Source: Candidatus Poribacteria bacterium (lineage in GTDB: Bacteria; Poribacteria; WGA-4E; JAJDTR01). Taken from it: a DNA stretch of 64,000 nucleotides. The stretch spans positions 871,058-935,057 of the forward strand of contig OZ246960.1 of NCBI GenBank assembly GCA_965232235.1, read 5' to 3'. Positions 11,420-63,985 of the stretch are shown here, piece after piece; within the stretch, counting starts at the first letter, position 1, and every line of letters starts with the position of its first letter. The notes below the pieces were generated by a model. The model was not told where the DNA came from. It worked only from the letters and a program-made list of their open reading frames with translations, and did not search any database. A program made the translations under genes and the position numbers.

Positions 11420-12223
11420 GTGTATGCCGGAACATGGTACGACGGCGTATTTCGCTCCGACAGTCATGGCAACACATGGCAACCCATAAACAACGGAATC
11501 CGCTTAATCGATCGGGGTAGCGAAGAACTCGGGCCTCCAATCATTGAGCAAATACTCGTGACGAGTTCCGGAACCGTCATCGCTGTGGGGTACCACAGCG
11601 GTACGCATACATCGACCGACCGAGGCAAGACATGGCACGACGTAACACTAGAGTGGAAAGTGCGCCGAGACGCATGGGGACTGCCCGACCGGATAATAGG
11701 CGATGGTATCTGGTCGATGGCGGAGTTCGACGGCTATCTTTGGGCAGCCTATTCGAGATACCAAGTATTCCATTCCCGTGACAACGGCGTAACGTGGGAA
11801 CATACCAGCGGATTCGGGCATGGCCGGGTTGCCGACTGGGCGGTGCTTAATGATCGATTATACGTGGCCGGGGACGAAGGCTTTGGGCGATGGAACGAAG
11901 CCGAACTCGCGTGGGACGATCTCAGCCGAGGGCTTCCGCCAGCTGGCAGGTGGCCCGACCGTCCAGACCTCTCAATACAAACCCTGGTTGTTCATCGCGG
12001 ACGTATCTTCGCCGGGCTTCGGAACAACGGCGTGTGGACGTTTGATGAGCGCTCCGAAACGTGGATTCCCGCTGGTCTCGACGGGTTGACCGTTACCTCG
12101 CTCGTATCCCATCGATCCGATCTGTACGCAGCAACCAAAGAGGGCATCTACCGCGCTTCAATCCCGACCGTGCAACCCTCCGGTAAAGCCCTCACGACAT
12201 GGGGCACCGTTAAAACAAAATGA
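11420..12223 (+). CDS. BNR/Asp-box paralog 5, 5'-truncated
   Basis: Homology to paralog 1 starts about 11390 (..TAITIHQNTVYAGTWYDG..), equivalent to residue ~90 of the full-length proteins; no signal peptide; Asp-boxes and the tail PSGKALTTWGTVKTK are present. Confidence 0.55.
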   Translation: MYAGTWYDGVFRSDSHGNTWQPINNGIRLIDRGSEELGPPIIEQILVTSSGTVIAVGYHSGTHTSTDRGKTWHDVTLEWKVRRDAWGLPDRIIGDGIWSMAEFDGYLWAAYSRYQVFHSRDNGVTWEHTSGFGHGRVADWAVLNDRLYVAGDEGFGRWNEAELAWDDLSRGLPPAGRWPDRPDLSIQTLVVHRGRIFAGLRNNGVWTFDERSETWIPAGLDGLTVTSLVSHRSDLYAATKEGIYRASIPTVQPSGKALTTWGTVKTK

Positions 12224-12235
12224 CGGAGACCGCTC

Positions 12236-13309
12236 ATGAATAACAAACTCAGCTTAACGTTTATCCTAACCCCACTCCTGCTCGCGATCTGGCTCTCCAA
12301 TTTCGTCCAAGATGCCCGCGCGGAGTGGGAACATATCCCCGGCACCGAGGTCATCGGGAGCGTCGAACTGCTTGAAAGCGACGGTGTCCGTCTTTACGCC
12401 ATAGGTGACGCCGGCTTTTACCTCTCCTTCGATGACGGTTACACCTGGCGTCGCCGCAACATTGGTCGCGGCATCGAGGACTTTTATATCACCGCCATTG
12501 GAAGCGGGGATGGTGCCGTCTATGTCGGTACGGCAGACCACGGCGTGATCCGCTCCGACGACGGCGGCAACACCTGGGAGCACATTAACGAAGGGCTCCA
12601 CATCTTCGACAGCCCGAAATGGGGGGCCCACTACGGAAAGGTTGAACAAATGCTTGTCACAGGTTCCGGCATGGTCATCAACGTAGGATACCACCGTGGC
12701 ACGCACATATCTAACAACCGAGGCGAGAAATGGCGCGACGTAATGATGGAATGGAAGGCATCCCAAGGACCGGGACAGCACGATTGGGCTTTCGGCGACG
12801 GCATCTGGTCGATGACCGAGTTCGACGGCTATCTCTGGGCCGTCTATTCGGACGCCCCGGTATTCCGGTCCCCCGACCAGGGCGCCACTTGGGAGCTTCT
12901 TCCAATCCGAAGCTACGGCAGCATCCGCGACTTTGGGCGCGTACACGACTGGGCGGAGCTTGGGGATAAGCTGTACATCGCCGGAATCGGCGGCTTCGGG
13001 CGATGGAACGAAGCCGAACTTGCTTGGGACGATTTCAGCCAAGGACTCCCGCCGGAACGGATAGCAAGCCTAGCGGTTAATCGCGGCCGTATCTTCGCCG
13101 GAACAAGGAACAACGGCGTGTGGGTGTTTGATGGCCGATCCGAAAGGTGGATTCCCACAGGTCTGGACGGGTTGACCGTTACTTCGCTCGAACCCCATCA
13201 ATCCGATCTGTACGCGGCAACCAAAGAGGGCATCTACCGTGCTTCAATCTCGACCGTGCAACCCTACGGCAAAGCTGCCGCCACATGGGGCGCCATAAAA
13301 CAACGATGA
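12236..13309 (+). CDS. secreted BNR/Asp-box beta-propeller protein, paralog 6 (357 aa)
   Basis: Signal peptide; SFDDGYTW, SDDGGNTW, SPDQGATW; tail KAAATWGAIKQR. Confidence 0.75.
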   Translation: MNNKLSLTFILTPLLLAIWLSNFVQDARAEWEHIPGTEVIGSVELLESDGVRLYAIGDAGFYLSFDDGYTWRRRNIGRGIEDFYITAIGSGDGAVYVGTADHGVIRSDDGGNTWEHINEGLHIFDSPKWGAHYGKVEQMLVTGSGMVINVGYHRGTHISNNRGEKWRDVMMEWKASQGPGQHDWAFGDGIWSMTEFDGYLWAVYSDAPVFRSPDQGATWELLPIRSYGSIRDFGRVHDWAELGDKLYIAGIGGFGRWNEAELAWDDFSQGLPPERIASLAVNRGRIFAGTRNNGVWVFDGRSERWIPTGLDGLTVTSLEPHQSDLYAATKEGIYRASISTVQPYGKAAATWGAIKQR

Positions 13310-45210: not shown

Positions 45211-45612
45211 GTTTTAGTCTCCTATCCTTTTAGCTGCGATTGGGGCTTGAGTATCATCTCCTACGCTATTTTTTGACTATCACCGCCGGTCTCATTTCGC
45301 TGATGTGTCCCCGCCCACGATAGGCGCGTAGATGGTGGTTTTGTCCATAGTCATGACTGCCTTGAATGTCATTATAGCACGGGCGCAAAGGGATTGAAAC
45401 GGAAAAGGTGGTGCCCTCCGAGGGCGCATCCAATTGTAGGTGGTTGCATGCGGGATGGCGCAGGGCGGTTCAACAGTAGTAGACTTTAGAGTCGTGTCGT
45501 GATAGGCTGTCGTGTCGCGAGCGTCAAGGCGGGATTGGCTTCACAACTATTGAACCGAAGGGCTGAAATAGACGGAAGAGGGCAAAGCATTTATCCGGCA
45601 GGGGAGGGAGCA

Positions 45613-46728
45613 ATGACACTTCTGAGAGTTGTTTTGATAGTGGTTCTGGCGGCAGCCTCGAATCCGGTAGTTGCCGACCTAAAGATTCGTTTTTGGTCAG
45701 ACCGCGATGACGGCGAAAGTTCACTCTTCGTCATGAATCCTGACGGATCCGACCCGGTTAATGTAAAAGAGGAGATGGTTCTACCCACAGCGCCAGCCTG
45801 GTCGCCCGACAGAACGAAGATTGCCTTCACGTTTGGCCGCTATGAGAAATCCGATATTTATGTGATTGATATTGACGGTTCCAATCTTGTGAATCTTAGC
45901 AATAAAGGCGGCGGCGACTACAGCCCACGTTGGTCTCCGGATGGAACGAAGGTGCTCTGGTATGGATGGCCGCCGAGGAAGGGTGAAGGAGGCGCAAGAA
46001 TCTTCGTGAATGATGCGGACAGCTCAAATCTGCGTGACTTGGGCCCGGGTATCTGGCCCAAATGGTCACAAGATGGGACGATGATTGGCTTTACTCTCTA
46101 CGGGATCGTAGAAACTGCATTTATAGTAAACGCCAATGGTTCAGGCAGGCGCGCGGTGACCGAGCGGATTATAGACACTCAATTTCTTTCTTGGTCGCCC
46201 GATGAAACGAAGATTGGTCTTGCCAAACATATTCAGCATAACTCACACAAGGATCTTACGCAGTGGTGCGTCTATGTAATAGACATTGATGGTTCCAATT
46301 TAGTGCATCTTTCAAAAGATCTCCGAAACCTCGACGCCCATGGCGCTGCTTGGTCGCGGGATGGGAGGAAGATTGCTTTTTACACAAACGGCCTTGCCGT
46401 CGATGTTGGCGATATTTTCGTCGCGAATGCTGATGGCACGAACCGGATTAATCTCACTGAACACCATCCTCGCGGAAAAGACCGCAGCCCGCAATGGTCT
46501 AGAGATGGAAGGGAGATCCTGTTTGAAACCGACCGAGACGGCAACCGTGAGGTCTACATTATGAACGCGGACGGCACGAATCCGGTAAATCTCACGAATC
46601 ACCCCGCGGACGACGGGGCGGCGTCTTGGTTCACGTTCGACACCGACCTTCTTACAAGAGTCCCCTTGCCGTGGGAAACGCTGATTACGACGTGGGGACA
46701 GATAAAGGCAGTTGCCAGTGACCGGTGA
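45613..46728 (+). CDS. secreted PD40/TolB-like beta-propeller repeat protein, paralog 1
   Basis: Signal peptide from the internal Met; repeated WSPDGTKIAF/WSRDGRKIAF/WSQDGTMIGF units; tail LITTWGQIKAVASDR. Confidence 0.65.
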   Translation: MTLLRVVLIVVLAAASNPVVADLKIRFWSDRDDGESSLFVMNPDGSDPVNVKEEMVLPTAPAWSPDRTKIAFTFGRYEKSDIYVIDIDGSNLVNLSNKGGGDYSPRWSPDGTKVLWYGWPPRKGEGGARIFVNDADSSNLRDLGPGIWPKWSQDGTMIGFTLYGIVETAFIVNANGSGRRAVTERIIDTQFLSWSPDETKIGLAKHIQHNSHKDLTQWCVYVIDIDGSNLVHLSKDLRNLDAHGAAWSRDGRKIAFYTNGLAVDVGDIFVANADGTNRINLTEHHPRGKDRSPQWSRDGREILFETDRDGNREVYIMNADGTNPVNLTNHPADDGAASWFTFDTDLLTRVPLPWETLITTWGQIKAVASDR

Positions 46729-47005: not shown

Positions 47006-48118
47006 ATGAAATATCTGATGGTTGTATTGACATTAGTCTTGCTAGTTGCCTCAACGAGTTACCCAGTATTCGCCGATCTAAAGATTTTCTTTGAGTCCGG
47101 CAGAGATAACGAAACTTGGTCCTGGTTCTCGCTCTTTATGATGGATCCTGATGGCTCCAACCCTGTCAATCTTTCCAAGGCACTCGGCGTAAAATTAGGC
47201 GCCGTCTGGTCACCTGATGGGACAAAAGTTCTTTATTCGTCAGGCCCCGATTTTGAACGCGAGATACTTATGATGGATCTGGACAGTTCTAATGTTTTAA
47301 ATCTTACGAATGACCCCGGATCAGACAGTTTTCCGCGCTGGTCGCCTGATGGAACGCTGATTGCTTGGAATAGATGGCCGCCGCGCGGACTTGGCGGAGC
47401 AGTGGAGATCTTCACGATGAATGCCGACGGCTCCAATCCGCGCAACTTGGGGCGCGGTTTTCGTCCCAAGTGGTCTCCCGATGGGACAATGATAGGGTTT
47501 ATTCTCTCTGGCAGACCGGATAATGCTTTCGTAATGAATGCCGATGGCAGCGGTCGGCGGCGGGTGACCAATGACCTTCCGAACACTAAGTTTGTTTCGT
47601 GGTCGCGCGACGGAACAAAGATCGCCTTTTATCATCGACCTTTGATTGGATTTAATAAGAATAAGATCTACGTCGTAAACCTTGACGGAACCGGTTTGGT
47701 CGAACTCACCAAAGACCTAGCTGATATTGACCATTTCGGCGCCGCTTGGTCGCCGGACGGAACGAAGATAGCTTTTTATTCCTCGGAACTAGGCTTGAAT
47801 TGGTCCCACATCTACGTCGTGAATACCGATGGCACGAATCGGGTTAATCTTACCATACACCATCCACTTGGCATCAACAGGGTGCCCCAGTGGTCTCCGG
47901 ACGGAAGGGAAATTCTGTTTCAAACCAAACGCGATGGCAACTGGGAGATTTACCTCATGAACGCGGACGGTTCCGATCCGGTAAATCTCACGAATAACCC
48001 GTTCAACGATGAGCATCCCGCCTGGTTCAGATTCGATCTCCCGACAACATCGATCTCGCCGCAGGAAAAACTAATCACTTCTTGGGGACAGATAAAGGCA
48101 GTGGCCAGTGATCGGTGA
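47006..48118 (+). CDS. secreted PD40/TolB-like beta-propeller repeat protein, paralog 2
   Basis: Signal peptide; WSPDGTK repeats; tail LITSWGQIKAVASDR. Confidence 0.65.
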   Translation: MKYLMVVLTLVLLVASTSYPVFADLKIFFESGRDNETWSWFSLFMMDPDGSNPVNLSKALGVKLGAVWSPDGTKVLYSSGPDFEREILMMDLDSSNVLNLTNDPGSDSFPRWSPDGTLIAWNRWPPRGLGGAVEIFTMNADGSNPRNLGRGFRPKWSPDGTMIGFILSGRPDNAFVMNADGSGRRRVTNDLPNTKFVSWSRDGTKIAFYHRPLIGFNKNKIYVVNLDGTGLVELTKDLADIDHFGAAWSPDGTKIAFYSSELGLNWSHIYVVNTDGTNRVNLTIHHPLGINRVPQWSPDGREILFQTKRDGNWEIYLMNADGSDPVNLTNNPFNDEHPAWFRFDLPTTSISPQEKLITSWGQIKAVASDR

Positions 48119-48289: not shown

Positions 48290-48410
48290 TCTTGTTAGTC
48301 CATCCTATTCCTTAATCGGTTGCTTGATCTATTCACTCGGTTGCGGGATTTCTATCGCATAAGATGTACTATCGCCCTCGCTATTCACTCGGTTGATCCT
48401 CTCCAATGCT
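48290..48410 (+). repeat. R1-family repeat cluster
   Basis: Seen directly. Confidence 0.5.
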
Positions 48411-49961
48411 CGAACTCGTCGCTAGTAGCGCCTTCCGAAGTACCTCGTTATCAAACGCCTCAAGCAACGCGCTGCCATAAATTTGCACGTAGGCATCGAT
48501 TGCCATCTTTTCGGCAGCGTCGATAGGCTCATCCAACCGCGCCGCGGTCAATTCCCCGCTTTCGAGAATCTCGGAAATGGTTTTCGAGAAACTTCTAATC
48601 TCTTCGTCACTCGCCGCGCCGATCCCTTCCAACGCTCTCGCGGCTTGCGTCAAGTCTGTTAGCGTTTGCGTGCCAGCAAGTTCCGGGTGTTCCGCATAAT
48701 CTTGAAGTTGCTGCTCCAGTTCATCCGCCCCGTGAAACGCTTCAATTTCGATATCCAGTTCCTCCAACCGCTCGAGCGATTCCTTCATAAGATGCCCCGC
48801 CGTCACTAACGACTGCCTATTGGAAATGCGTGAACTTTCATCGACCTCCTCAGCACCTTGTACCGCGATAAGCAGCAGTTCGGCAACCCGCTGCTTATCC
48901 CCTCGGTCAGCCGCCTCGCCAATCGCGAAACGCAGCCCCGTCTTCACATCATCCGGCACTGTCGTTGTCCCTGTCTCAAATAATTCCCGAAACTCCTCAA
49001 ACGCTTCCGATTCTCCTCCCGCCTCAATCGATTCTCGGAATTTATCGAACCTATCGGAGCCCGACGGCAGTTTGGCGACCCCTTCCGCGATTTGCTTGAG
49101 CGTATCCGTAGCTGTCTCGTTCCTTCCGTCGGCTGAACCAAACATCTCCTCACCCAAAGCGGTTATCCGATCAGTCTCCGTTGATGTCAGGTCAACGCCC
49201 TCAAAGATTGACGGATCGGCGCCGCCCTCCTCCTTGCTGCTGCCGACATCTCCAGTCATTCTCACTCTTTTCTGGTGGATCATCTTCACTCCCGCCTCGT
49301 CTCCGATAACTCCGGATGTCACCGCCTCCTCCACATCACTCGCAAACTCCAAGAACGTGTCGATCTCAATCCGTTCAGCGCCTGGCGCCGAATCCTCGGG
49401 CAATCCATCTATCTCTCGCAGGCCCGACTCATAACGTCCGTTATTTTCCGTCGGCGTGTCCCCGAGCAACCCTCCATCATACAGGTTCGTCCACTGATCC
49501 GCCTTCCGCTTCCGTTCCGCCTCGTCCACTTCCGTTTTTGTCTCCGGCGGCGTCTCCAACTCAATCCCGATCCGCTTCAGAATCGCCTTTTCAAACCTGT
49601 CCGCTTTTTCCGTATTTCCCGTCTTTTCCGCTCTATCCAGCAGATTCCCGAGAACCTCCAGATCCGCCTTCTTCGTTTCGTTTTCCTGCTTTAGCTCGTG
49701 TTCGGACGTTTCCCGCTCTTGCTCCGCCGCTTCTTCCGTCCACTGATCCTGAATCTCCTGTAGCTGCACCCGCTTGTCGTCAAGCAACTGCTGCGCCAAC
49801 CGCTTCTCACGCTCCGTCTCCGCCTGATGCACCATCACCTTCGCCTCAAGGTAGGCGCGAATCCCGGCGGCTAAGCGCCGTGCGGTGTCTGCCCCGATTT
49901 GCGTGCCAACGGGCGGTTGGTACGATGTGGTTTGTCCATCGATTCTCTGAATGTTTGGCAT
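48381..49961 (-). CDS. acidic coiled-coil protein (526 aa), possibly phage scaffold-like
   Basis: Glu/Asp-rich, low complexity; the N-terminal ~20 codons overlap an R1 repeat. Confidence 0.35.
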   Translation of the reverse strand: MPNIQRIDGQTTSYQPPVGTQIGADTARRLAAGIRAYLEAKVMVHQAETEREKRLAQQLLDDKRVQLQEIQDQWTEEAAEQERETSEHELKQENETKKADLEVLGNLLDRAEKTGNTEKADRFEKAILKRIGIELETPPETKTEVDEAERKRKADQWTNLYDGGLLGDTPTENNGRYESGLREIDGLPEDSAPGAERIEIDTFLEFASDVEEAVTSGVIGDEAGVKMIHQKRVRMTGDVGSSKEEGGADPSIFEGVDLTSTETDRITALGEEMFGSADGRNETATDTLKQIAEGVAKLPSGSDRFDKFRESIEAGGESEAFEEFRELFETGTTTVPDDVKTGLRFAIGEAADRGDKQRVAELLLIAVQGAEEVDESSRISNRQSLVTAGHLMKESLERLEELDIEIEAFHGADELEQQLQDYAEHPELAGTQTLTDLTQAARALEGIGAASDEEIRSFSKTISEILESGELTAARLDEPIDAAEKMAIDAYVQIYGSALLEAFDNEVLRKALLATSSSIGEDQPSE

Positions 49962-50108
49962 GAATTACCTCCGTAATGCGTAATAGGGCCTCTATCGCAC
50001 GGGACTTAACTATCGATCAACGGAACGGATAGTGACTGCGATAGGAAGTCCTACTCGTTATTCGCTCGTGTGATCGTTAGCAGCCAATTTGCTTAGCATA
50101 GTCTGTTC

Positions 50109-50137
50109 TTGACTCTAATCTCACAATCTGCTATAAT
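50109..50137 (+). promoter_or_regulatory. near-consensus sigma-70 promoter TTGACT-N17-TATAAT
   Basis: TTGACT at 50109..50114, 17-nt spacer, TATAAT at 50132..50137; AAGGAAA ribosome-binding site then ATG at 50196. Confidence 0.6.
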
Positions 50138-50195
50138 GCCATCGTCGCTAGCGAAACGCGACAATGCGAATCCTCCTCTTGCAAAGGAAAACGCT

Positions 50196-50651
50196 ATGAA
50201 CCTCAGCGACACAGCCCAAATCGCAGGTCTAGTCATTTTATACCTAGGTGGCATATTCCTAATCGGCAACTACATGGCAACCACACTCGGTAAACGCATG
50301 GATGATCTGGGCAAACGCATGGACGACATGCGATCCGACATCAACGCCCGTATGGGCGATATGAACACCCGTATGGACGAGATGCGAACCGACTTGCTTA
50401 TGCGCATGGGCGACATGCAATCCAACATCAACGCCCGCATGGGTGACGTTAACAATCGCATAGACGATATGAACACCCGCATGGATGAGATGCGAACCGA
50501 CTTGCTTTCGCGCCTGGGCGACATGCAATCCAACACCAACGCCCGCATGGGCGATATGAACACCCGATTTGACGATATGAACACGCACATGGATGAGATG
50601 CGATCCGACCTGCTTACGCGCATGGACGACATGCGATTCCAACTCAGCTGA
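50196..50651 (+). CDS. membrane-anchored Met-rich tandem-repeat protein (151 aa)
   Basis: Start moved to the Met downstream of the promoter; N-terminal TM helix, then about 11 repeats of RM[DG]DMxxxINA / RMDEMRTDLL. Confidence 0.55.
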   Translation: MNLSDTAQIAGLVILYLGGIFLIGNYMATTLGKRMDDLGKRMDDMRSDINARMGDMNTRMDEMRTDLLMRMGDMQSNINARMGDVNNRIDDMNTRMDEMRTDLLSRLGDMQSNTNARMGDMNTRFDDMNTHMDEMRSDLLTRMDDMRFQLS

Positions 50652-50800
50652 GAACACGATACCCTGGCGACAAAAGTCGACACCATCGATCAAAAGCTAA
50701 CCCACCACATCGGCGATCACGAAATTCATGAAAAATGGCAAACATGATTTCCTGATAAATACACAAGGCCACCGTCTCTCCTCTCCGTGCTCTTCATGTT

Positions 50801-52594
50801 TCACACCCTGACAACACTTCGCCTCTGTTTCCTAACTGCTGCCTGATCGATCCTCTGCTGCGCTGTCGTCATGATGCGAGAGCGGCAGGCGCCCTGCACC
50901 GCGTCCGGTGCATCGTTGTGATCCGCCGACGGGAATTGCCTGAACTGCTTCCAGAACTCCGGCGGCAACTCCCGCTCGTTGAACGCCAGCCATCCGTTCG
51001 CTATCGCAGGCTCAAGCGTTTCGATCCGGTCTTCCTTGTTCTGGTGCTGCTCGTGATACGTAATCACCCCTTCAAAGCGATGGCGCTCTTTCGTGGCACG
51101 AAACGCATGATCGGTTGACATTCGTATTGTGCCGTCCGTGTCCGGTCTCTGTTCGCATACGAAGTTGGTCTTCGGGTAAGCGGGCGCCAACATCGCTTCC
51201 GCGCGCTGCGCCAGCAGGATGGCGTTCTCCATCTGCTCCGTCAACGGAGCGCGCTCCAGCCACGCCAGCATCACGTACCCGTTCACTCCGGATAGCGAGT
51301 CGGGATTCATCGATTGCCCGCCGAGGAGCGGCTCCCACGCCACCACAACGGCGCACGCATAACTGTTCGCAACCGCATCGCGGCCGCCCATGGTGTCGAG
51401 ATACGTCGTGAATCCGCCGATATCGTGCCACGGCACGACACGCCCGTCGCTCCGGCGAAAGCCTTCGTCCGTGACGGAGAACGTGATCGCTGCGTCCATG
51501 TTGAACAGCGACATGGAGGGATCGCGCGCATCGTTCTGGAGTTCGCGCATGACGCTGTGGTAGCCGCGTTCCACGACCTCCTTCCGCACTCGGAGATACG
51601 GCAACTCCTTCTCCCACAGCATCGACACGCCCGCCGTCATCTCATTCTCATGTTCGTTGAAGAACGCGTCCGCCTTGCTCTCGCGATCCAGGTCATCGAG
51701 CGTCGTGTCGCTGTAGAACCGCTCCCACTCTTTCCACAGATACTCGGCGGTAGGGTGATAAACATCTTTGGGATAACGCACCGCTTCGTAGCGCAGCGTC
51801 TCCCAACCGGGCACGGTGCGGAGATGTTCGGACAGCGATTCGGGGTGTTTCACCGTGTCAACTATCATGGTGTTGGAGTGCTTGCTCCCCAAGTCGCCGG
51901 CGTACATAAAGTCGGTCATGAACCAGTCCCTGTCTTCTTCGCGCAGCTCGGGATTCAGGCAGCGTTTCGGATCTTCGATGTCGTCGCACAGTTTCAACGT
52001 CGGGCGCACATCGCCGAGCAGTGCGCCCCGAGGCGACGCGCCCCGTCCGAGCGGTCTTAGCCCAACGCCGTTGCTGGTATCGGTCTCCGTCTTTGACCAC
52101 GGATCGCCGACCAGGTCGCCAAAATCTTGTCTGATAAAAGGATTGCGTTCGAGGACTTGGCGAATTTCGGTGATGCGTTGGCGCGCCATGCGCTCGTTTC
52201 GGCCCACGATGAGGATAAACTCCTCAGGCGGTCTATCCATGGCGATATCGAAGTCCTTGTAGCAGATCCGCCAGATGGGGATTAGGCGGTTGACAATTGT
52301 TGTCTTTCCGGTGCCGCGCGGCGCTTGGACGTTTACCTGTTGCCCGTAGTCGCCGGGTTTTATCGCGTTCAATATCTGAAGATGAAAGTCTTGAAATTCG
52401 AGGATGCGATAGCTGATGTTTCTGATATAGTACCAGATGAATAGTTCCGGATACAGATATCCGGCGTGCGCTCTAAGACTCCTCGCCATCTTCGGATTCT
52501 TGCGCATCTGCCTCACAACATGCTGCGATATAAGTAATCGCGGCAGCGTTGACATCGTCTGGATGAGAGTCTTCGAGGGTACTATCTTTGTCAT
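50801..52594 (-). CDS. phage terminase large subunit (TerL)
   Basis: Walker A VQAPRGTGKTT; acidic LKLCDDIED box; C-terminal RNaseH-like nuclease motifs including SADHNDAPDAV; the real start may be the internal Met at 52489. Confidence 0.65.
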   Translation of the reverse strand: MTKIVPSKTLIQTMSTLPRLLISQHVVRQMRKNPKMARSLRAHAGYLYPELFIWYYIRNISYRILEFQDFHLQILNAIKPGDYGQQVNVQAPRGTGKTTIVNRLIPIWRICYKDFDIAMDRPPEEFILIVGRNERMARQRITEIRQVLERNPFIRQDFGDLVGDPWSKTETDTSNGVGLRPLGRGASPRGALLGDVRPTLKLCDDIEDPKRCLNPELREEDRDWFMTDFMYAGDLGSKHSNTMIVDTVKHPESLSEHLRTVPGWETLRYEAVRYPKDVYHPTAEYLWKEWERFYSDTTLDDLDRESKADAFFNEHENEMTAGVSMLWEKELPYLRVRKEVVERGYHSVMRELQNDARDPSMSLFNMDAAITFSVTDEGFRRSDGRVVPWHDIGGFTTYLDTMGGRDAVANSYACAVVVAWEPLLGGQSMNPDSLSGVNGYVMLAWLERAPLTEQMENAILLAQRAEAMLAPAYPKTNFVCEQRPDTDGTIRMSTDHAFRATKERHRFEGVITYHEQHQNKEDRIETLEPAIANGWLAFNERELPPEFWKQFRQFPSADHNDAPDAVQGACRSRIMTTAQQRIDQAAVRKQRRSVVRV

Positions 52595-53908: not shown

Positions 53909-54313
53909 TTGGGGGTAATTACAGCTTTCTATCTGACTTTGAACACGGCGTTTCTGGCACTGATTGGATATACCCTCAGATCTGGTACAAACAATGAAAA
54001 TTTAACTTCGATACTTTTTATTCCCATTGCATCATTATTGGGGTTAGTTCTATCTCACTTGTGGTTCAGAACAATAAAATCTCATAAGCAACTCAATATT
54101 GGGAAGTTTGATGTTATTCTTCTGATGGAAAGAGAGTTGCCGTTTGCGCCATACACTGCCGAATGGAAATCTCTTGAAGAAGGAAAGAATCCCAATAGGT
54201 ATCAAGAAATTACAAACATTGAGTCGAGGCTACCGAAGATTTTTGCCGGAATGTACGTGGTATTCGGAACACTGCACATTGTTCCAATATTAGTCAGTAA
54301 AATCGGCGGGTAA
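53909..54313 (+). CDS. small 2-TM membrane protein (134 aa) inside the cassette
   Basis: Two hydrophobic helices at the N-terminus and another at the C-terminus; low-GC codon usage. Confidence 0.4.
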   Translation: MGVITAFYLTLNTAFLALIGYTLRSGTNNENLTSILFIPIASLLGLVLSHLWFRTIKSHKQLNIGKFDVILLMERELPFAPYTAEWKSLEEGKNPNRYQEITNIESRLPKIFAGMYVVFGTLHIVPILVSKIGG

Positions 54314-54520
54314 AACGTCAAGCACCTCTATCGTTTTCCATGCCCACTCCCTATCACTTTCTTTCTCTTCCTCAGATAAATCATCATAGTTGATTTTAAT
54401 TTGGCGGCGCCATCTGGAAATATTTTCGTCTGTGAGGTTCTCAAGCATATAACTCGTCCAGTGCGCCCATTGCTCATGTTCGAGCGCTGCGAGCTTTTCA
54501 ATCAGTTCTTTGGAAACCAT
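54290..54520 (-). CDS. small hypothetical protein (76 aa) inside the cassette, convergent with the membrane protein
   Basis: ORF track from the internal Met MVSKELIEKL. Confidence 0.3.
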   Translation of the reverse strand: MVSKELIEKLAALEHEQWAHWTSYMLENLTDENISRWRRQIKINYDDLSEEEKESDREWAWKTIEVLDVLPADFTD

Positions 54521-55347
54521 TTTTTCTTCCTTAAATACTATGATTGTTAAGCAACCGTAACTAACAAAATTACAGATCAATATTATAACAGTTTCTCATA
54601 ACATGTCAACTCGTTCCGTCCCCACCCTTGCTTGAACCTTCATCACTTCCACCCGTTATACGTCCCCGCCTGATAAAAAGCTACTAATAAACTAGTAGTC
54701 ATTATGTACTCTTTCCGCAGCACATTTGTCTCTTAATGATATAAAACACTGTTCTGGCGGAAAATTTTTTCGCAAACACGCATTCCAGCGACGTGGTAGA
54801 TGCTTGATGCTGAGTCAAGTCGATCTCTATTGGACTAACTATGGGAACTAACACCGCCTTCGCTATTCACACAGTTGATCGCTCGGTTATTCGCAATCCA
54901 CTTGCGTGAGGGATTTTCTATCGCGGTCATTATTCATGCGCTTGATCGGACGAGTGCCAACGGGGTCAGCCGAGATAATTTTAACATGTTGGGGCGGGTT
55001 TTTCAATCGTCAAAAATCCTGCTGAACATTGGAGAGGGCTGTGGCGAGTCGGGAGGGATGAGGGGGAGAAGACGGGAATTCGTGAAACAAAAAAAAAGCC
55101 CGCTAGCGGGAGCGTTCATGGAGGCGAAACCACTTCCGCTGACGGGCTCGGCTTGGTGTTGCACACTGGAACTTGTAGTGTGCGACTAGCTTGTTTTTAT
55201 ACACGTTAGGAGGTGTATATTTTCATAGACGGGATCGGTTTTTGGAGGTTTAGAGAGAAGGGCGTTTTTTTTGGGGATTAAGGGGAACCGCGGGGGAATG
55301 GATAGCCAGAAAACGGGGATGGATAGAGCGCGCCGATTGACTGTTGA

Positions 55348-56057: not shown

Positions 56058-57023
56058 ATGACGAAGATGATTAAAAGGGACCTACAATATTACGTGGAGA
56101 AGATGAAGCGCTTGAAGATTGACAGGGCGCACGGTCCGGCGCCGCATAAGCCGGCGCTGCTGCTGTCGGTCATCGCGCTGATTGAGGATGGGCTAGTTAC
56201 AGAGAATCGAATTGAGTTGTCCCCCGAAATGGCGGAGATCTTCATCCGATATTGGTCGAGGGTCACTAATCGAAAGCCTGATATTTCGTTGCCATTTTTC
56301 CACCTGCAGAGTGATGAGTTCTGGCATCTGCACCCAAACACGGGTTACGAAACGGCTCTGCGTGTTGCCAACCAGATTAAAGGGATTTCTCGGATTCGCG
56401 AGGTTGTTGCATACGCTGGTTTGGACGATGAGTTATTTCTGTTACTCACTGACGCGGTCGATAGAGAGACGATTCGTCGAACACTAATACGTACGTATTT
56501 CCAGGAATATATTAAACAGATTGGGGAGTTGATTGAGGAGGAGCAGCAGATCGGAGCGTACAGAGAATCGTTAATTGACGAAGTTGAATCGCCGTTTTCA
56601 ACGACGAAACCAAAAAGGCAAACTGGGGCTTACACCAAGGTACGCGATGCCGGGTTTCGGCAAGCGATCATGCGACTATACGATTACACTTGTGCGGTTT
56701 GCGAGTTGCGTATCGTCACTATGGATGGCGAGAGTGCAAGTGAAGCGGCTCATATCATCCCGTTTCGTGTTTCGCAGAATGACGATACACGGAACGGAGT
56801 CTCATTGTGCAAATTGCACCATTGGGCGTTCGACAGAGGACTGTTTTCGTTGAGCGAGAACCATCGGGTGGTTGTTTCCGGGTTGATGTCGGAGGATCGT
56901 CCAACGGAGTGGAAGTTGACGGAACTTGAAGACACACGTATTCAGTTACCGGATAGGGTTCAATTTCGCCCTGCACAGGAAGCAATGGCGTGGCACCGGG
57001 AAAATGTGCTCAAGCAGAATTGA
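56058..57023 (+). CDS. HNH_2-type endonuclease with an N-terminal DNA-recognition-like domain; candidate modification-dependent (type IV) restriction enzyme
   Basis: CAVCEL..EAAHIIPF..NGVSLCKLHHWAFDRGLFSL HNH motif at the C-terminus; N-terminal HKPALLLSVIALIEDG block. Confidence 0.5.
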   Translation: MTKMIKRDLQYYVEKMKRLKIDRAHGPAPHKPALLLSVIALIEDGLVTENRIELSPEMAEIFIRYWSRVTNRKPDISLPFFHLQSDEFWHLHPNTGYETALRVANQIKGISRIREVVAYAGLDDELFLLLTDAVDRETIRRTLIRTYFQEYIKQIGELIEEEQQIGAYRESLIDEVESPFSTTKPKRQTGAYTKVRDAGFRQAIMRLYDYTCAVCELRIVTMDGESASEAAHIIPFRVSQNDDTRNGVSLCKLHHWAFDRGLFSLSENHRVVVSGLMSEDRPTEWKLTELEDTRIQLPDRVQFRPAQEAMAWHRENVLKQN

Positions 57024-59319: not shown

Positions 59320-59960
59320 CGTAACGGGCGAGGGAAGATCTCTATCGCCTTCCTTGTTCAGTCAGTTGATCCTCGCCCCTACAGGTCAAATGGCTCGACA
59401 GAGCATAGTCGCGATTCGGAGATCGCTCCTACAACCGTATAGCTCACATTGCACTCCGCTGGAGTGCGGAGATTTGACGTATGGTGTTTCTATTGACATT
59501 GCACTGCGCTGCAGTGCGATGGAAGGTGTGGGACTTACTATCGCGCTCGTTATTCACTCGCTTGATCCCACCCTACAACTGCTAAATCGCGACCTGGAAA
59601 TCGCTCCTACAAATGGAGAGAAATCTCTATAGCGCCCGATGCCTCACATTGCGCTCCGCTGGAGCGCATAGGCGAATATGGCGATTTTCTATTGACATGC
59701 CGCTCCGCTGGAGCGGGGAATCGCGACCGGGAGGGGGATTTCTATCGTCCTCGTTATCCACTCGCTTGATCGTTCCTACAGGTCAAATCATGCCGGTGTC
59801 CATGCCCGACGCGACATTTTGGTTAAGGGGATTTCCTATCGTCCTCCCTATCCGGTCGGTTGATGGATTCCCGCGGGATTTACTATTAGGATTTGCTACC
59901 GCACTCACTATCCGTTCGCTTGATCCCTCGCTATTCGGTCGGTTGATCTCCGTTGGTTGA
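59320..59960. repeat. dense cluster of R1 repeats plus two ttctattgacat+hairpin modules and GTAG-REPs
   Basis: Seen directly. Confidence 0.65.
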
Positions 59961-61504
59961 ACCGGTTGCGAAAACGTGTCATCATCCCAACCGTAGCCGG
60001 TGTCGAATCCCACAAACTTGATTAACTCGCTAATTGACATGTGCGCGCCCAGCGCCGCCATGATCTGCGCGATCTCCAGCTTGCCAGCCGGCGTGTTCGG
60101 CAGTGAGGTCGCGTCGGGCATCTTCATGCGGTATCCGATATACCGCGCCTCCTCCCTGAGCGAATCAGGGAAATCAATACCCCGCCGCCAAATATGAGCC
60201 GCAAGCGGACGGCGGGCAAACTGTTGTGTCAACGAAATCAGCAACCGCATCCGATGAAGCCGGAATTCGTTCATCTCGCGGACGTTGTTGCTTATCTGGT
60301 TAAACGCCGCCCACTGCAGCGTGTTCACCATTCTGCCGCTGGCGTTGGAGGACGGGGCTTGCCCGGCGAACACCGGATTCAGAGACGGCATCATGTCCGC
60401 AATCCCTTGAATCGAGTGTTGCAAGAGATTGTACAGAATCGGCGGCACCGCTTCCGTTGGAAACGGTTTGATATCTCTATCAAGGTCGTACTCCTCCTCG
60501 ACCTCGATGTTGACGCCGTATCCCGTAAACACCTGCTCCATATCCAGCGCGCCGCGCTTCGATATCATGCGGCCTATCGACAATCGACGCAGCATCAGGA
60601 TAAGGTTGGAGTAAACCTCGTCGAGAAACTTCTGCTGCGACCAGCACAGTGCTCCGTAACCGTGTCCCCAAAACGATCGCGATTGATTACTGCTGTGTTT
60701 GATGACGGGGAAATTCCGCCACGTCGCAAACGGGAAATCGGGGTAATAGTACGGCGTTGTCCGAATCCGCACGACGTCGTTGTCGATTGCCGTCGCATAG
60801 AAAACCTCCGTGTCGCCCGCGTCCTTCACCTGTATGCCCTGCATCTCGGCAATCCATCGCCGCATCCACAGTTCCCGAATCCTGAACTGTCGCTGCTCAT
60901 TATCCAGATTTGAGCCGGTTTTTGAATCGGAAATCTGGTAGTCGGGATAGTGGTAGCGGATATAGCGCTCGTTCTGTGTCGTCTCGTGCACCAGGAATCC
61001 CGCATTCGACAAATCCGTGCTCGTTGCGTCCGGATCGACGGAGAACGCCAGCGGCGAAATCGGTACCATCCGCACCACGCGATAGCGCGGGTCATACACC
61101 GCTTTCGAGATGGCGTGTCCGAAGATCAGGTTGTGGTAAACCGCATCTTCAAGGCGCTCACCCTCCTTGTCCACCTCCTGAAACATCTGGGTCCACTGTT
61201 TCAAATCCTCGATATTCTCGGCATCCTCAATGCTGTGGCGGCTCCTGTCCGGCAGCAGTTCTATCCGTGCCGCCTGCTCCGTGAACGCCGGCACCAGACG
61301 CAGGATTCCCTTCTGAATCTCGGGATTCAGGCTCTCATGCGTTATCGGAGACACATTCCCAATAGACGTGCCATCGACGTACGCACTGCGATTATTGTAA
61401 ATCGCGAGCTCATGACGCATCCGGCTGTGGTGTTCCTGCGCCGCACCCTGCGCCTCGTCCATGAGGCTGAAAAATTTTTCGGCTGATTTTTTGTTTATCA
61501 TCAC
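59783..61504 (-). CDS. putative phage portal protein; the C-terminal ~55 codons are repeat-derived
   Basis: Size and position in the module; the last part of the ORF reads through the R1 repeats (..ERIVSAVANPNSKSRGNP..). Confidence 0.35.
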   Translation of the reverse strand: MMINKKSAEKFFSLMDEAQGAAQEHHSRMRHELAIYNNRSAYVDGTSIGNVSPITHESLNPEIQKGILRLVPAFTEQAARIELLPDRSRHSIEDAENIEDLKQWTQMFQEVDKEGERLEDAVYHNLIFGHAISKAVYDPRYRVVRMVPISPLAFSVDPDATSTDLSNAGFLVHETTQNERYIRYHYPDYQISDSKTGSNLDNEQRQFRIRELWMRRWIAEMQGIQVKDAGDTEVFYATAIDNDVVRIRTTPYYYPDFPFATWRNFPVIKHSSNQSRSFWGHGYGALCWSQQKFLDEVYSNLILMLRRLSIGRMISKRGALDMEQVFTGYGVNIEVEEEYDLDRDIKPFPTEAVPPILYNLLQHSIQGIADMMPSLNPVFAGQAPSSNASGRMVNTLQWAAFNQISNNVREMNEFRLHRMRLLISLTQQFARRPLAAHIWRRGIDFPDSLREEARYIGYRMKMPDATSLPNTPAGKLEIAQIMAALGAHMSISELIKFVGFDTGYGWDDDTFSQPVQPTEINRPNSEGSSERIVSAVANPNSKSRGNPSTDRIGRTIGNPLNQNVASGMDTGMI

Positions 61505-62512: not shown

Positions 62513-63985
62513 TTACACGTACGCTCGAACCTTCAACCCTCTAATTGTCGCGCCGCCCGTTCCGGCAATCTTGAACCGCATCGCAAATCCCCGACGGTCT
62601 ATCCGAACCCGCACATAATCGAATCTTTCCCCGCCCATCCTATTCGCCGTGATAGTTTTCTCGACCGGCTCTTGATCATCGATGTAAAATGCGGCGGTTA
62701 CGTCTTTCTCCGCGTTCCCGTCAATCACCAGTTCCTTGAAGGTTTTCATCTCGCTTCCAAGCCCCTGCGAGTTCCAATCAAGCTGCTGCGATTCCCAAGC
62801 CCAATCAATTTCCTCCGTGGGAGCGCCCTCTTGCCCCGTGTACTTCGTTAAGCCGTCAACCGTTTCGTCATCGACCACCCAATCGAGCAGGCGCGGTGAG
62901 CGCTGCCCGTCGGCGATCACGCCCGTCAGCGGCTGTTCGTCAAACTTCACCGAAGCGTATTGACGGATGTGCGCCCCGTCAGGGACTTCTATCGCACGGG
63001 ATTTACTATCAGGTTTTACTATGGGATTAGCTATCGCAGTCGCTATCCGCTCCTTTGATCCTTCGTTATCAAGATCTCTATCGCACTCGTTATTCACTCG
63101 CTTGATCTCAGTTGATCCTTGCGCGAAGCGCACCCAATCGTTGCCATCATTAACAAAATAGATGATATCGGTATTGCCGGTCGACTTATGGCGGCGGCGA
63201 ATCCCCCACAGGCTCGCATTGTTCGGCAGCATACCCACAAACCCGTCGTCCACCTCGTACCGATTGAAATATCCTTTCAACTGGGGCACAGACTCCGGCG
63301 CAGCCGTTCCGTCCGTCAGGTAGAGCCCGTCACTCCCCACAAAGCCGAAGGCTTTTTCGAGCACACTCCACGCATGGGGTGATGCCGGACCGCGTGCCGA
63401 AATTCGGTCGTATCGAAACGTCTGTGGTGATGTGCCGCTGAGCCGGTGAAGATTATCGGCCGCGCCGAACAGCAGCATCCCTCGATATTCGGCGCAGAAC
63501 TCAATGCGCTGACCGGTGGTGATGGCATTTATGACAGGCCAAGCATGCCACCGCGGTGTCAAATTGCGCACGTCACTAAATCGGAGTTCGTTTCCGTTTG
63601 CGCCAAACAGCCGGTCGTTAAATCTTTCTATCTGTGAAATACTCGGAGGCATTCGGCTGCTGTCCGTTAGCGGGTTCGACACATCGATTACGATTTCCCC
63701 ATCTTCAAGTTCATAATTGTCGTCGTCAAATTCAACGTCTTCATCGCCGATTTCAACCTCGCCGACGCGATAGTATGTAATGTTCGCGTCGTTTTCAAAT
63801 AGGTCGAAAGCGCCGCCGCTCCGGTATATGCGAACTGCTGTTACGCGGCTATCGTCGGAATGCGGTATATTGCGCAACGTTGCCAGCGGAACGTCTTGGA
63901 CCGGCGTTTGGCGGTAATTGATTGCGCGCCGTTCTGAAGCGGGTGATTCGATGGATCCTACGCGGCTGAACGCTACATAGGTCAA
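62513..63985 (-). CDS. phage-module structural-size protein (490 aa) with an in-frame repeat-derived segment
   Basis: The reading frame stays open across the R1 repeat cluster 62985..63110 (..SKERIATAIANPIVKPDSKSRAIEVPD..). Confidence 0.35.
   Translation of the reverse strand: MTYVAFSRVGSIESPASERRAINYRQTPVQDVPLATLRNIPHSDDSRVTAVRIYRSGGAFDLFENDANITYYRVGEVEIGDEDVEFDDDNYELEDGEIVIDVSNPLTDSSRMPPSISQIERFNDRLFGANGNELRFSDVRNLTPRWHAWPVINAITTGQRIEFCAEYRGMLLFGAADNLHRLSGTSPQTFRYDRISARGPASPHAWSVLEKAFGFVGSDGLYLTDGTAAPESVPQLKGYFNRYEVDDGFVGMLPNNASLWGIRRRHKSTGNTDIIYFVNDGNDWVRFAQGSTEIKRVNNECDRDLDNEGSKERIATAIANPIVKPDSKSRAIEVPDGAHIRQYASVKFDEQPLTGVIADGQRSPRLLDWVVDDETVDGLTKYTGQEGAPTEEIDWAWESQQLDWNSQGLGSEMKTFKELVIDGNAEKDVTAAFYIDDQEPVEKTITANRMGGERFDYVRVRIDRRGFAMRFKIAGTGGATIRGLKVRAYV
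62985..63110. repeat. R1-family repeat cluster embedded in-frame in CDS 62513..63985
   Basis: Four tatcgc..ttgatc units. Confidence 0.6.

What the first reader, a model, noticed from the sequence alone, without database searches (positions are those of the whole stretch)
50109..50651. Near-consensus sigma-70 promoter driving a membrane-anchored Met-rich tandem-repeat protein
TTGACT-17-TATAAT is a near-perfect consensus. A strong AAGGAAA ribosome-binding site follows, then a 151-aa protein with one TM helix and about 11 repeats (KRMDDLG, RMGDMNT, RMDEMRTDLL, RMGDMQSNINA). It contains about 30 Met, many in MxxM or MxDM spacing. Possible roles include Cu(I)/Ag(I) binding, a coiled-coil phage-exclusion or superinfection protein, or a moron. 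The ORF-track start at 50109 overlaps the promoter, so the start was moved to 50196.
Basis: seen in the sequence. Interest (0 to 1): 0.55.

Follow-up and report, generated by a model that had tools for sequence, protein, structure and literature searches.

The report
Truncated membrane-anchored helical repeat protein gene
This is a real, strongly promoted small gene inside a prophage-like element of a Poribacteria genome; it encodes a membrane-anchored long-helix repeat protein from an undescribed lineage-specific family, its methionines are core residues of the helix rather than a copper site, and this copy is cut short by a premature stop codon.

Summary
The promoter (TTGACT-17-TGcTATAAT), the ribosome-binding site, the ATG at 50196, one transmembrane helix and 12 repeat units of 7 or 11 residues are all present. 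Promoter and ribosome-binding site are invariant in six homologous loci.

The next 31 codons are in frame. They encode EHDTLATKVDTIDQKLTHHIGDHEIHEKWQT, the conserved C-terminal end carried by intact relatives, where the TGA position is Gly or Arg. The natural gene is 50196..50750 (183 codons). This copy is most likely a recent nonsense allele.

All eight genome hits are in five Candidatus Poribacteria assemblies, with two or three paralogs per genome in three of them. None was found in viral collections. Conserved parts are the membrane anchor (YLGGIxxIG, GKRIDDL) and the His-bearing end. The repeats are a length-variable insert of 0 to about 14 units.

The protein has 24 Met, not about 30. 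21 of them sit at unit positions 2 and 5, the hydrophobic stripe of one long helix with a 3.60-residue period. Other paralogs have Ile, Phe, Leu or Val there, and no cop or cus genes are nearby, so Cu/Ag binding is not supported.

The gene lies on the opposite strand between the large terminase and a 526-aa gene. That is moron-like, but it has no terminator and is present in all related elements. Function is inferred only. Interest is low to moderate.

The parts
50109..50114 (+). -35 hexamer TTGACT
   Evidence: 11 of 12 matches. Invariant in 7 homologous loci.
50129..50137 (+). Extended -10, TGcTATAAT, 17-nt spacer from the -35
   Evidence: Sites with at least 11 of 12 matches: 4 in the window against 0.47 expected.
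50138..50195 (+). 5' leader of about 50 nt containing the ribosome-binding site AAGGAAA (50184-50190). No significant structure.
   Evidence: Fold z-score -0.22. No Rfam match. GGAAAAC invariant in 7 loci.
50196..50651 (+). Coding sequence as it reads with the standard code: 151 aa, ending at a premature TGA
   Evidence: The start is confirmed by all homologs.
50214..50282 (+). N-terminal transmembrane helix (about residues 7-29, AQIAGLVILYLGGIFLIGNYMAT). It carries the family motif Y-x-GGI-x-x-IG and is followed by GKR[IM]DDL.
   Evidence: Hydropathy maximum. Best-conserved part of the family. No Lys or Arg before it, Lys-Arg after it.
50295..50648 (+). Twelve Met-rich units of 7 or 11 residues (R-M-x-D-M...), forming one long amphipathic helix
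   Evidence: Tandem repeat period 108 nt. Unit parse. Met at unit positions 2 and 5, hydrophobic period 3.60. AlphaFold2 single helix 3-150, pLDDT 89.5.
50649..50651 (+). Premature in-frame TGA. Relatives have GGG or GGA (Gly) or AGA (Arg) here.
50652..50750 (+). Conserved C-terminal tail now stranded after the stop: EHDTLATKVDTIDQKLTHHIGDHEIHEKWQT, plus the natural stop TGA at 50748-50750
   Evidence: 26 of 31 residues identical to L012, with 10 synonymous and 5 non-synonymous codon differences. The tail is present in P0001-P0004, P0006, P0009 and others. The His residues lie on the hydrophobic seam.
50801..52594 (-). Convergent neighbour: phage large terminase subunit
   Evidence: phrog_38, E = 1.8e-52. 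About 25% identity to terminases of Pseudomonas phages such as JBD24.
48381..49961 (-). Divergent upstream neighbour: 526-aa acidic protein of unknown function, syntenic in related elements

Best explanation
The locus is a real monocistronic gene driven by a strong, conserved sigma-70-type promoter. It belongs to an undescribed small-protein family found here in Candidatus Poribacteria.

Family members have three parts:
1. A highly conserved N-terminal transmembrane anchor (Y-x-GGI-x-x-IG, then GKRIDDL).
2. A length-variable run of 7- and 11-residue units (0 to about 14 units). These form one continuous amphipathic helix whose hydrophobic stripe repeats every 3.6 residues.
3. A conserved helical end of about 31 residues (R/G-EHD-x-LA-x-KVD...H-I-x-D-H-x-I-H), whose His residues lie on the same stripe.

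The Met residues of this copy are the stripe (core) residues of the repeat units, multiplied by recent tandem duplication. They are not a metal-binding motif.

By the positive-inside rule, the helix most likely faces the cytoplasm. It would then be either a rod-like homo-oligomer or an apolipoprotein-like helix lying on the membrane surface. Either way it would be a structural or stress-type membrane protein, not an enzyme or a transporter.

One lineage of the family is carried as a cargo gene in a prophage-like element. It sits on the opposite strand, between the large terminase and a 526-690-aa gene. In this window a single-base change turned the Gly/Arg codon in front of the conserved end into TGA. 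This copy therefore makes a 151-aa protein lacking the conserved tip, or it is a young pseudogene.

Shown: the anatomy, the conservation, the premature stop and the genomic context. Inferred: topology, oligomeric state and biological role.
For: - Promoter and ribosome-binding site are present and invariant in 7 loci.
- Homologs carry the tail after Gly or Arg at the TGA position.
- Tail versus L012: 10 synonymous and 5 non-synonymous codon changes, so the tail was under purifying selection until recently.
- Family distribution: 8 loci in 5 Poribacteria assemblies, with 2-3 paralogs per genome in three of them. About 20 further short members appeared in the 1.8-billion-protein library.
- A minimal paralog, L019, has the anchor and the tail but no repeats.
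- Met sits only at unit positions 2 and 5, and the hydrophobic period is 3.60. Met content is 1.3-14.6% across members, with Ile, Phe, Leu or Val at the same positions.
- AlphaFold2 gives one helix for both the truncated protein and a full-length paralog (pLDDT 89.5 and 90.2).
- Hydrophobic residues fall within about 60 degrees of the stripe centre. Arg/Lys cluster on one flank, Asp/Glu on the polar face, and the conserved His at -54, -14 and -74 degrees.
- The closest profile matches are exchangeable apolipoproteins: PF01442 at E = 2.7e-6 and apolipoprotein A-IV in the PDB at E = 8e-9.
- TGA is the commonest ordinary stop in the window and is also this gene's own natural stop. This supports a nonsense mutation rather than recoding.
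- A second paralogous gene in the window also carries a premature TGA.
- The neighbours are the large terminase, a portal and an internal virion protein.
Against: - No expression or protein data exist.
- Whether the TGA is a true allele or a consensus error cannot be checked without reads.
- Topology rests only on the charge distribution around the anchor.
- The helix flanks carry Arg at both g-like and e-like positions. This fits a canonical parallel dimer poorly, so the oligomer model is unsettled.
- Met-richness (10-15%) is shared by the prophage-linked clade, so some selection for Met in that clade is not excluded.
- The tail after the TGA is still intact, which would also fit read-through.
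Confidence: 0.6

Rival explanations
1. The TGA at 50649 is a sequencing or assembly error or a minor allele. In the organism the gene is intact (183 codons) and makes the full protein with the conserved His-bearing end.
For: The tail is undamaged and 84% identical to L012. Related long-read assemblies show homopolymer frameshifts in this family that look like errors: L002 has GGGG for GGG, L007 A5 for A6, and L014 A7 for A6.
Against: The lesion is a substitution, not a homopolymer indel. A second gene in the same window also has a premature TGA. An Illumina-assembled ortholog, L008, has a different substitution lesion, start ATG to ATA. Real decay of these copies is therefore plausible.
Confidence: 0.15
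2. Programmed UGA read-through: the gene makes two isoforms, a 151-aa tip-less form and a 183-aa full-length form.
For: The frame stays open and conserved for 31 codons up to the family's natural stop.
Against: No relative has a stop at this position; all have Gly or Arg. No stable downstream structure is predicted (z-score -1.13). The base after the UGA is G, which from general knowledge of E. coli termination is not a notably leaky context. Open extensions of at least 31 codons follow 26% of long ORFs by chance. Other orthologs carry unrelated lesions.
Confidence: 0.07
3. One reading: a Met-rich Cu(I)/Ag(I)-binding protein using MxxM motifs.
For: 24 Met, mostly as M-x-x-M on one helix face. 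Met-richness of 10-15% is shared by the prophage-linked clade. Conserved His residues lie on the same face in the tail.
Against: The same positions are Ile, Phe, Leu or Val in other family members. There is no signal peptide, and the orientation is probably cytoplasmic. No cop, cus or pco genes are nearby. There are no Cys residues. The repeats are recent duplications of one unit (83% identical 108-nt period), which alone explains the Met count.
Confidence: 0.05
4. A phage-function protein: a superinfection-exclusion factor or a lysis component (an Rz-like inner-membrane spanin or XhlA-like protein) expressed from the prophage.
For: It lies inside a prophage-like element on the opposite strand with its own promoter. 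The architecture, an N-terminal anchor plus a long helix, resembles inner-membrane spanins. There are weak hits to phrog_739 Rz-like spanin (E = 0.02) and to SieB (E = 0.024).
Against: All those hits are far below significance. No endolysin, holin or outer-membrane spanin is adjacent. No homolog was found in 50,697 phage genomes or in IMG/VR. There is nothing meaningful in PADLOC. Several paralogs sit among ordinary chromosomal genes. The predicted orientation is cytoplasmic, not periplasmic.
Confidence: 0.1
5. Not a real gene: a low-complexity tandem repeat that happens to be open.
For: Repetitive DNA and many spurious coiled-coil hits.
Against: The start, anchor, junction and tail are conserved across about 30 proteins, with many synonymous changes. 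The promoter and ribosome-binding site are invariant.
Confidence: 0.02

Closest known systems
Exchangeable apolipoproteins (A-I, A-IV, E; Pfam PF01442) and other 11-mer amphipathic-helix repeat proteins
   Same: Tandem 11-residue-based amphipathic helices with a narrow hydrophobic stripe, basic residues at its edge and acidic residues on the polar face. These are the best profile matches: PF01442 at E = 2.7e-6 and apolipoprotein A-IV in the PDB at E = 8e-9.
   Different: The score is far below the Pfam cut-off (27.7 against 90 bits). This protein is bacterial, has an N-terminal membrane anchor and a mixed 7/11 repeat pattern giving a 3.60 rather than 3.67 period, and has no Pro punctuation. 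The similarity is at repeat level and does not demonstrate homology.
sll1863 family stress response protein (NCBIfam NF052504; Synechocystis Sll1863, a highly salt- and stress-induced protein of unknown function, PMC8670252)
   Same: This is the most consistent named hit across the family, covering the repeat region: 32.7 bits for the window protein and 19.8-31.3 bits for six relatives. Both are small, and this gene's strong promoter suggests high expression, as reported for Sll1863.
   Different: All scores are below the 35-bit cut-off. The match covers only the repeats, not the anchor or the tail. Sll1863 itself has no known mechanism and no knockout phenotype (PMC8670252).
YhcB/ZapG (NF008672) and similar bitopic proteins with an N-terminal anchor and a cytoplasmic coiled coil
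   Same: Same architecture. Short family members give weak end-to-end matches: E about 0.005, residues 1-75 against model positions 1-71 of 133.
   Different: 16.9 bits against a 150-bit cut-off, with no shared motifs. This is an analogy of architecture only.
Phage morons (independently transcribed cargo genes in prophages, as defined for HK97 and HK022; from general knowledge)
   Same: Own strong promoter, opposite strand, inserted between phage structural and packaging genes.
   Different: No terminator. The gene is present at the same place in all seven related elements examined rather than variably. Paralogs exist outside prophages.

Membership tests
Unnamed Poribacteria anchor-repeat-His-tail family (defined here) | N-terminal transmembrane helix with Y-x-GGI-x-x-IG followed by GKR[IM]DDL | tested here: met
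   Residues 16-38 match. These are the invariant or nearly invariant columns in alignments A1 and A4.
Unnamed Poribacteria anchor-repeat-His-tail family (defined here) | C-terminal R/G-EHD-x-LA-x-KVD...H-[IV]-x-[DN]-x-x-[ILV]-H end, translated as part of the protein | tested here: not met
   The tail is encoded at 50652..50747 but separated from the ORF by an in-frame TGA. The DNA is a family member. The predicted product lacks this module unless the stop is read through.
Met-rich Cu(I)/Ag(I)-binding proteins (CusF, PcoC/CopC or Ctr1-type Met motifs) | Met motif conserved in homologs | tested here: not met
   Met content is 1.3-14.6% across members, with Ile, Phe, Leu or Val at the same unit positions.
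Met-rich Cu(I)/Ag(I)-binding proteins (CusF, PcoC/CopC or Ctr1-type Met motifs) | Periplasmic or extracellular location and linkage to copper or silver resistance genes | tested here: not met
   No positively charged signal-peptide n-region, and Lys-Arg follows the anchor. The neighbours are terminase, a 526-aa protein and PD40 proteins.
Met-rich Cu(I)/Ag(I)-binding proteins (CusF, PcoC/CopC or Ctr1-type Met motifs) | Measured metal binding | not testable with these tools
   Needs purified protein.
Phage moron | Own promoter | tested here: met
Phage moron | Own terminator | tested here: not met
   No terminator-like site on the + strand between 50651 and 50801. Fold z-score +1.36.
Phage moron | Present in some but absent from other closely related phage genomes | tested here: not met
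   Present between the large terminase and the downstream gene in the window and in L001-L003, L005, L008, L012, L013 and L014.
Rz-type inner-membrane spanin | Significant similarity and adjacency to an outer-membrane spanin, endolysin or holin | tested here: not met
   phrog_739 at E = 0.02 only. There is no lysis gene nearby, and the protein has no Cys.
sll1863 family (NF052504) | Score at or above the curated cut-off of 35 bits | tested here: not met
   32.7 bits for the window protein; 19.8-31.3 bits for relatives.
HSBP1 (PF06825) | Score at or above the gathering cut-off, as one coherent domain | tested here: inconclusive
   39.6 bits against a 28.6-bit cut-off, but summed over 6 short repeat matches to a 51-position coiled-coil model. 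A short member scores only 16.5 bits. This is treated as a repeat artefact.
Selenoprotein or recoded UGA | Cys or Sec at the aligned position in homologs, plus a stem-loop downstream of the UGA | tested here: not met
   Homologs have Gly or Arg. No significant structure is predicted. TGA is the commonest ordinary stop in the window.

The most novel reading that the evidence does not exclude
In the prophage-borne clade, the continuous seam of Met thioethers (about 22 layers of M-x-x-M on one helix face) is capped by conserved His residues on the same seam. This could act as a membrane-anchored binding surface for soft metal ions (Cu(I)/Ag(I)) or as an oxidant sink, with the UGA at 50649 deciding whether the His cap is made. 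The evidence does not exclude this for that clade, where Met-richness is shared (10-15% Met in the window, L012, L005 and L013).
Probability: 0.05. Interest if true: 0.6.

Novelty: new member of a known kind. Interest (0 to 1): 0.27.

Why it matters
The result defines a previously unannotated small-protein family found here in Poribacteria. The family has a conserved membrane anchor, a length-variable helical repeat and a conserved His-bearing end.

It also shows that a striking composition (16% Met) can come from amplification of one repeat unit rather than from a metal site. It corrects the gene model: the natural end is 50750 and the TGA at 50649 is premature.

If the sub-threshold link to the cyanobacterial Sll1863 stress-protein family were confirmed, two sets of abundant proteins of unknown function would be connected. 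Otherwise this is an ordinary lineage-specific hypothetical protein carried by a prophage-like element.

Tried and rejected
- Rfam on 49900-50900: no match.
- Folding of the leader, the post-TGA region and the 3' intergenic region: no structure beyond shuffled controls, so no riboswitch, SECIS-like element or terminator.
- IMG/VR scan with the family alignment: no relative.
- tblastn against 50,697 phage genomes: one insignificant coiled-coil hit.
- PADLOC: only 12-20-bit matches to the coiled-coil tails of ZorA, PbeC and LmuB.
- Pfam and NCBIfam on short members: nothing near threshold.
- PHROGs: phrog_1009 (unknown function) at E = 4.4e-6 is the best hit, and it is uninformative.
- JGI metagenome scan: only looser relatives with a similar anchor and KRIDDL-repeat layout, no close copy that could test the TGA.
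- tblastn of all ORFs from the related loci against the window, to find other interrupted genes: swamped by shadow-frame matches and not informative beyond confirming position 50649.
- Neighbourhood comparison of chromosomal paralogs: no conserved partner gene.
- tRNA scan for an integration site or a suppressor tRNA: none in the window.
- Structure-library searches were not run, because both models are single helices and the matches would be meaningless.
- General TGA reassignment was considered because two in-frame TGAs in the window align to Gly. It was rejected: TGA ends most long ORFs with short extensions, the terminase and portal genes have no in-frame TGA, and this gene's own natural stop is TGA where L012 has TAG.

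Full report
**Observation**

- A -35 TTGACT lies at 50109-50114. After a 17-nt spacer comes an extended -10, TGcTATAAT, at 50129-50137 (11 of 12 matches).
- Near-consensus sites are rare. Four sites with at least 11 of 12 matches occur in the 64-kb window, against 0.47 expected from first-order Markov simulations.
- In an alignment of the upstream regions of seven homologous loci, the -35, the TG-extended -10 and the GGAAAAC ribosome-binding site are invariant. Spacer and flanks vary.
- AAGGAAA lies at 50184-50190 and the ATG at 50196.
- The protein has one hydrophobic segment at residues 6-29.
- Tandem Repeats Finder reports a 108-nt period with 2.8 copies at 83% identity. It parses into twelve units of 7 or 11 residues beginning R-M-x-D-M.
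- The Met count is 24 of 151 residues, not about 30.

**The missed feature: a premature stop**

The TGA at 50649-50651 is followed in frame by 31 sense codons and a second TGA at 50748-50750. Those codons encode EHDTLATKVDTIDQKLTHHIGDHEIHEKWQT.

Homologs that reach the C-terminus carry this tail as part of the protein:
- P0004 reads ...DDMRFQLSRDHDTLATKVDVVDQKLTQHVSDHEVHEKWQA.
- L012 reads ...QLSGEHDTLATKVDSLDQKLTHHVSDHEIHEKWQA.

At the TGA position relatives have GGG, GGA or AGA, so the window codon is one substitution away.

An open extension of at least 31 codons follows 26% of long ORFs by chance. The open frame alone therefore means little. The homology is what counts: 26 of 31 residues are identical to L012, with 10 synonymous and 5 non-synonymous codon differences. 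The tail was under purifying selection until recently.

TGA is otherwise an ordinary stop here.
- It ends 23 of 46 ORFs of at least 200 aa, mostly with short extensions.
- It is the natural stop of this very gene, where L012 uses TAG.
- Downstream of the TGA there is no significant RNA structure (z-score -1.13).
- Homologs have Gly or Arg at the position, not Cys. Selenocysteine and general recoding are therefore rejected.

I conclude that this is a nonsense allele. A consensus error cannot be excluded without reads.

**Lesions in related copies**

Other prophage-linked copies also carry defects.
- L001-L004 have an extra G in a G-run that splits the gene.
- L008, a short-read assembly, has the start ATG changed to ATA and two substitutions at conserved tail and junction positions.
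- L014 and the chromosomal paralog in L007 have single-base changes in A-runs.

The indels sit in homopolymers of what appear, from contig naming, to be long-read assemblies, so they may be errors. The two substitutions look real.

**The family**

A scan of one genome per species returned eight loci, all in five Candidatus Poribacteria assemblies. Three of those assemblies carry two or three paralogs. Nothing was found in IMG/VR or in 50,697 phage genomes.

A profile search of 1.8 billion representative proteins returned many spurious long coiled-coil proteins. It also returned about 20 further short proteins that match from residue 1.

The alignments show three things:
- The conserved N-terminus is M-[NDTS]-W-x-x-T-x-Q-I...Y-[LVI]-GGI-x-x-IG...LGKRIDDL.
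- The conserved C-terminus is R-x-Q-M-x-R-E-H-D-x-L-A-x-K-V-D...H-[IV]-x-[DN]-x-x-[ILV]-H.
- A variable number of repeat units lies in between. L019 has none and L016 has about 14.

The Met-rich repeats are therefore a length-variable insert, not the conserved core.

Looser relatives occur in JGI metagenomes of unknown taxa. They share the layout of an anchor, KRIDDL repeats and a DHE-containing end.

**What the Met residues are**

Of the 24 Met, 21 occupy positions 2 and 5 of the units. The hydrophobic moment of the helical part peaks at 3.60 residues per turn (0.83). It is only 0.11 at 3.5 and 0.33 at 3.67. This is the 18/5 periodicity expected from mixing 7- and 11-residue units.

Met content of the helical part ranges from 1.3 to 14.6% in the family. 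Ile, Phe, Leu or Val sit at the same positions in other members. The prophage-linked clade is uniformly Met-rich at 10-15%.

AlphaFold2 predicts one uninterrupted helix in two cases:
- residues 3-150 of the window protein (pLDDT 89.5);
- residues 3-125 of the full-length paralog P0003, tail included (pLDDT 90.2).

On a 100-degree helical wheel:
- hydrophobic residues fall within about 60 degrees of the stripe centre;
- Arg and Lys cluster on one flank;
- Asp and Glu lie on the polar face;
- the conserved tail His residues H171, H175 and H178 lie on the stripe at -54, -14 and -74 degrees.

The Met residues are thus the core residues of an amphipathic helix. The Cu(I)/Ag(I) idea lacks its defining support: a conserved motif, an exported location and metal-resistance neighbours.

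**Context**

The gene is convergent with a large terminase at 50801..52594 on the minus strand (phrog_38, E = 1.8e-52; about 25% identity to terminases of Pseudomonas phages such as JBD24). It is divergent from a 526-aa acidic protein.

Further along the minus strand are a portal (59783..61504) and an internal virion protein (62513..63985). Between the portal and the terminase lies a defence-like insert on the plus strand: an 8xMP protein and an HNH nuclease. Below about 48.3 kb the genes look chromosomal: PD40 propellers, an amidohydrolase and a PLP enzyme.

The same arrangement recurs in L001-L003, L005, L008, L012, L013 and L014. Terminase identity is 85-94%, against 53-70% for the small protein.

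No terminator separates the gene from the terminase stop. Transcripts probably run antisense into the terminase gene.

Other paralogs lie among glycoside hydrolases, peptide deformylase and ABC transporter genes, a sulfatase, and WD40 and alcohol dehydrogenase genes. They have no conserved partner, and each has its own -10-like TATAAT upstream.

The gene is therefore moron-like in anatomy, but it belongs to a host-wide paralogous family and is not variably present.

**Mechanism**

Shown: a membrane anchor, one long amphipathic helix and a conserved His-bearing end that this copy does not translate.

Inferred:
- The family has essentially no Lys or Arg before the anchor and an invariant Lys-Arg after it. 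The helix therefore most likely faces the cytoplasm.
- The helix either self-associates into a rod about 18-20 nm long or lies on the membrane surface like a class-A amphipathic helix.
- The surface-helix model is favoured slightly, for three reasons. The best profile matches are exchangeable apolipoproteins (PF01442, E = 2.7e-6; apolipoprotein A-IV, E = 8e-9). Arg sits at the stripe edge. The stripe has an exact 3.6 period and so is straight.

The family also gives consistent sub-threshold hits to the NCBIfam sll1863 family: 32.7 bits for the window protein and 19.8-31.3 bits for relatives, against a cut-off of 35. Sll1863 is a highly stress-induced Synechocystis protein of unknown function with no knockout phenotype (PMC8670252).

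I therefore commit, with low confidence in the functional part, to a structural or stress-type membrane-associated protein. The His-lined end would be a pH- or metal-sensitive contact.

**Comparison and verdict**

No curated family claims this protein. The only above-threshold hit, HSBP1, is a sum of six short repeat matches. Phage exclusion, spanin, XhlA and ZorA similarities are all insignificant.

This is a new, lineage-restricted member of the general class of bitopic proteins with a membrane anchor and a long helix. The copy in this window is truncated. Interest is low to moderate.

Noticed in passing
window 6413..7363 (+), TGA at 7145-7147: A second gene with a premature in-frame TGA. 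This BNR/Asp-box propeller paralog aligns with window paralogs 7506..8576, 11420..12223 and 12236..13309 straight across the stop, which falls where they have Gly in 'YVAG' or 'YIAG'. Together with 50649, this suggests nonsense decay in redundant paralog families of this genome.
   Followed up: partly
window 54609..54582 (-): A perfect 12-of-12 sigma-70 consensus, TTGACA-16-TATAAT, upstream of a 96-aa ORF (54290..54580, minus strand) with a weak RyR-domain match.
   Followed up: no
window 53909..54313 (+) and 56058..57023 (+): A defence-like insert between the portal and the terminase of the prophage-like element: an 8xMP octameric membrane protein (Pfam E = 7e-29) and an HNH_2 nuclease (PADLOC HNH E = 1.5e-22). 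In the related locus L005 the 8xMP gene follows a ThsB-TIR gene.
   Followed up: partly
window 50801..52594 (-) and loci L002, L005, L008, L012, L013, L014: The large terminase is 85-94% identical in protein sequence across loci from several Poribacteria assemblies. Neighbouring genes are only 50-80% identical, and some loci carry IS elements. This is either a widespread phage lineage or a domesticated element.
   Followed up: partly
window 50751..50800: There is no intrinsic terminator between the small gene and the convergent terminase stop. The strong promoter probably drives antisense transcription into the terminase gene.
   Followed up: partly
loci L001-L004, L007 and L014; proteins P0018, P0035, P0078, P0101: Many family members in public assemblies are split by single-base indels in G- or A-runs. 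These are either long-read homopolymer errors or real slippage in this repeat-rich gene.
   Followed up: partly
window 45499..46728 (+) and 47006..48118 (+): Two PD40 beta-propeller paralogs flank the end of the prophage-like element. Similar PD40/Tricorn genes sit at the equivalent place in L005 and L008.
   Followed up: no
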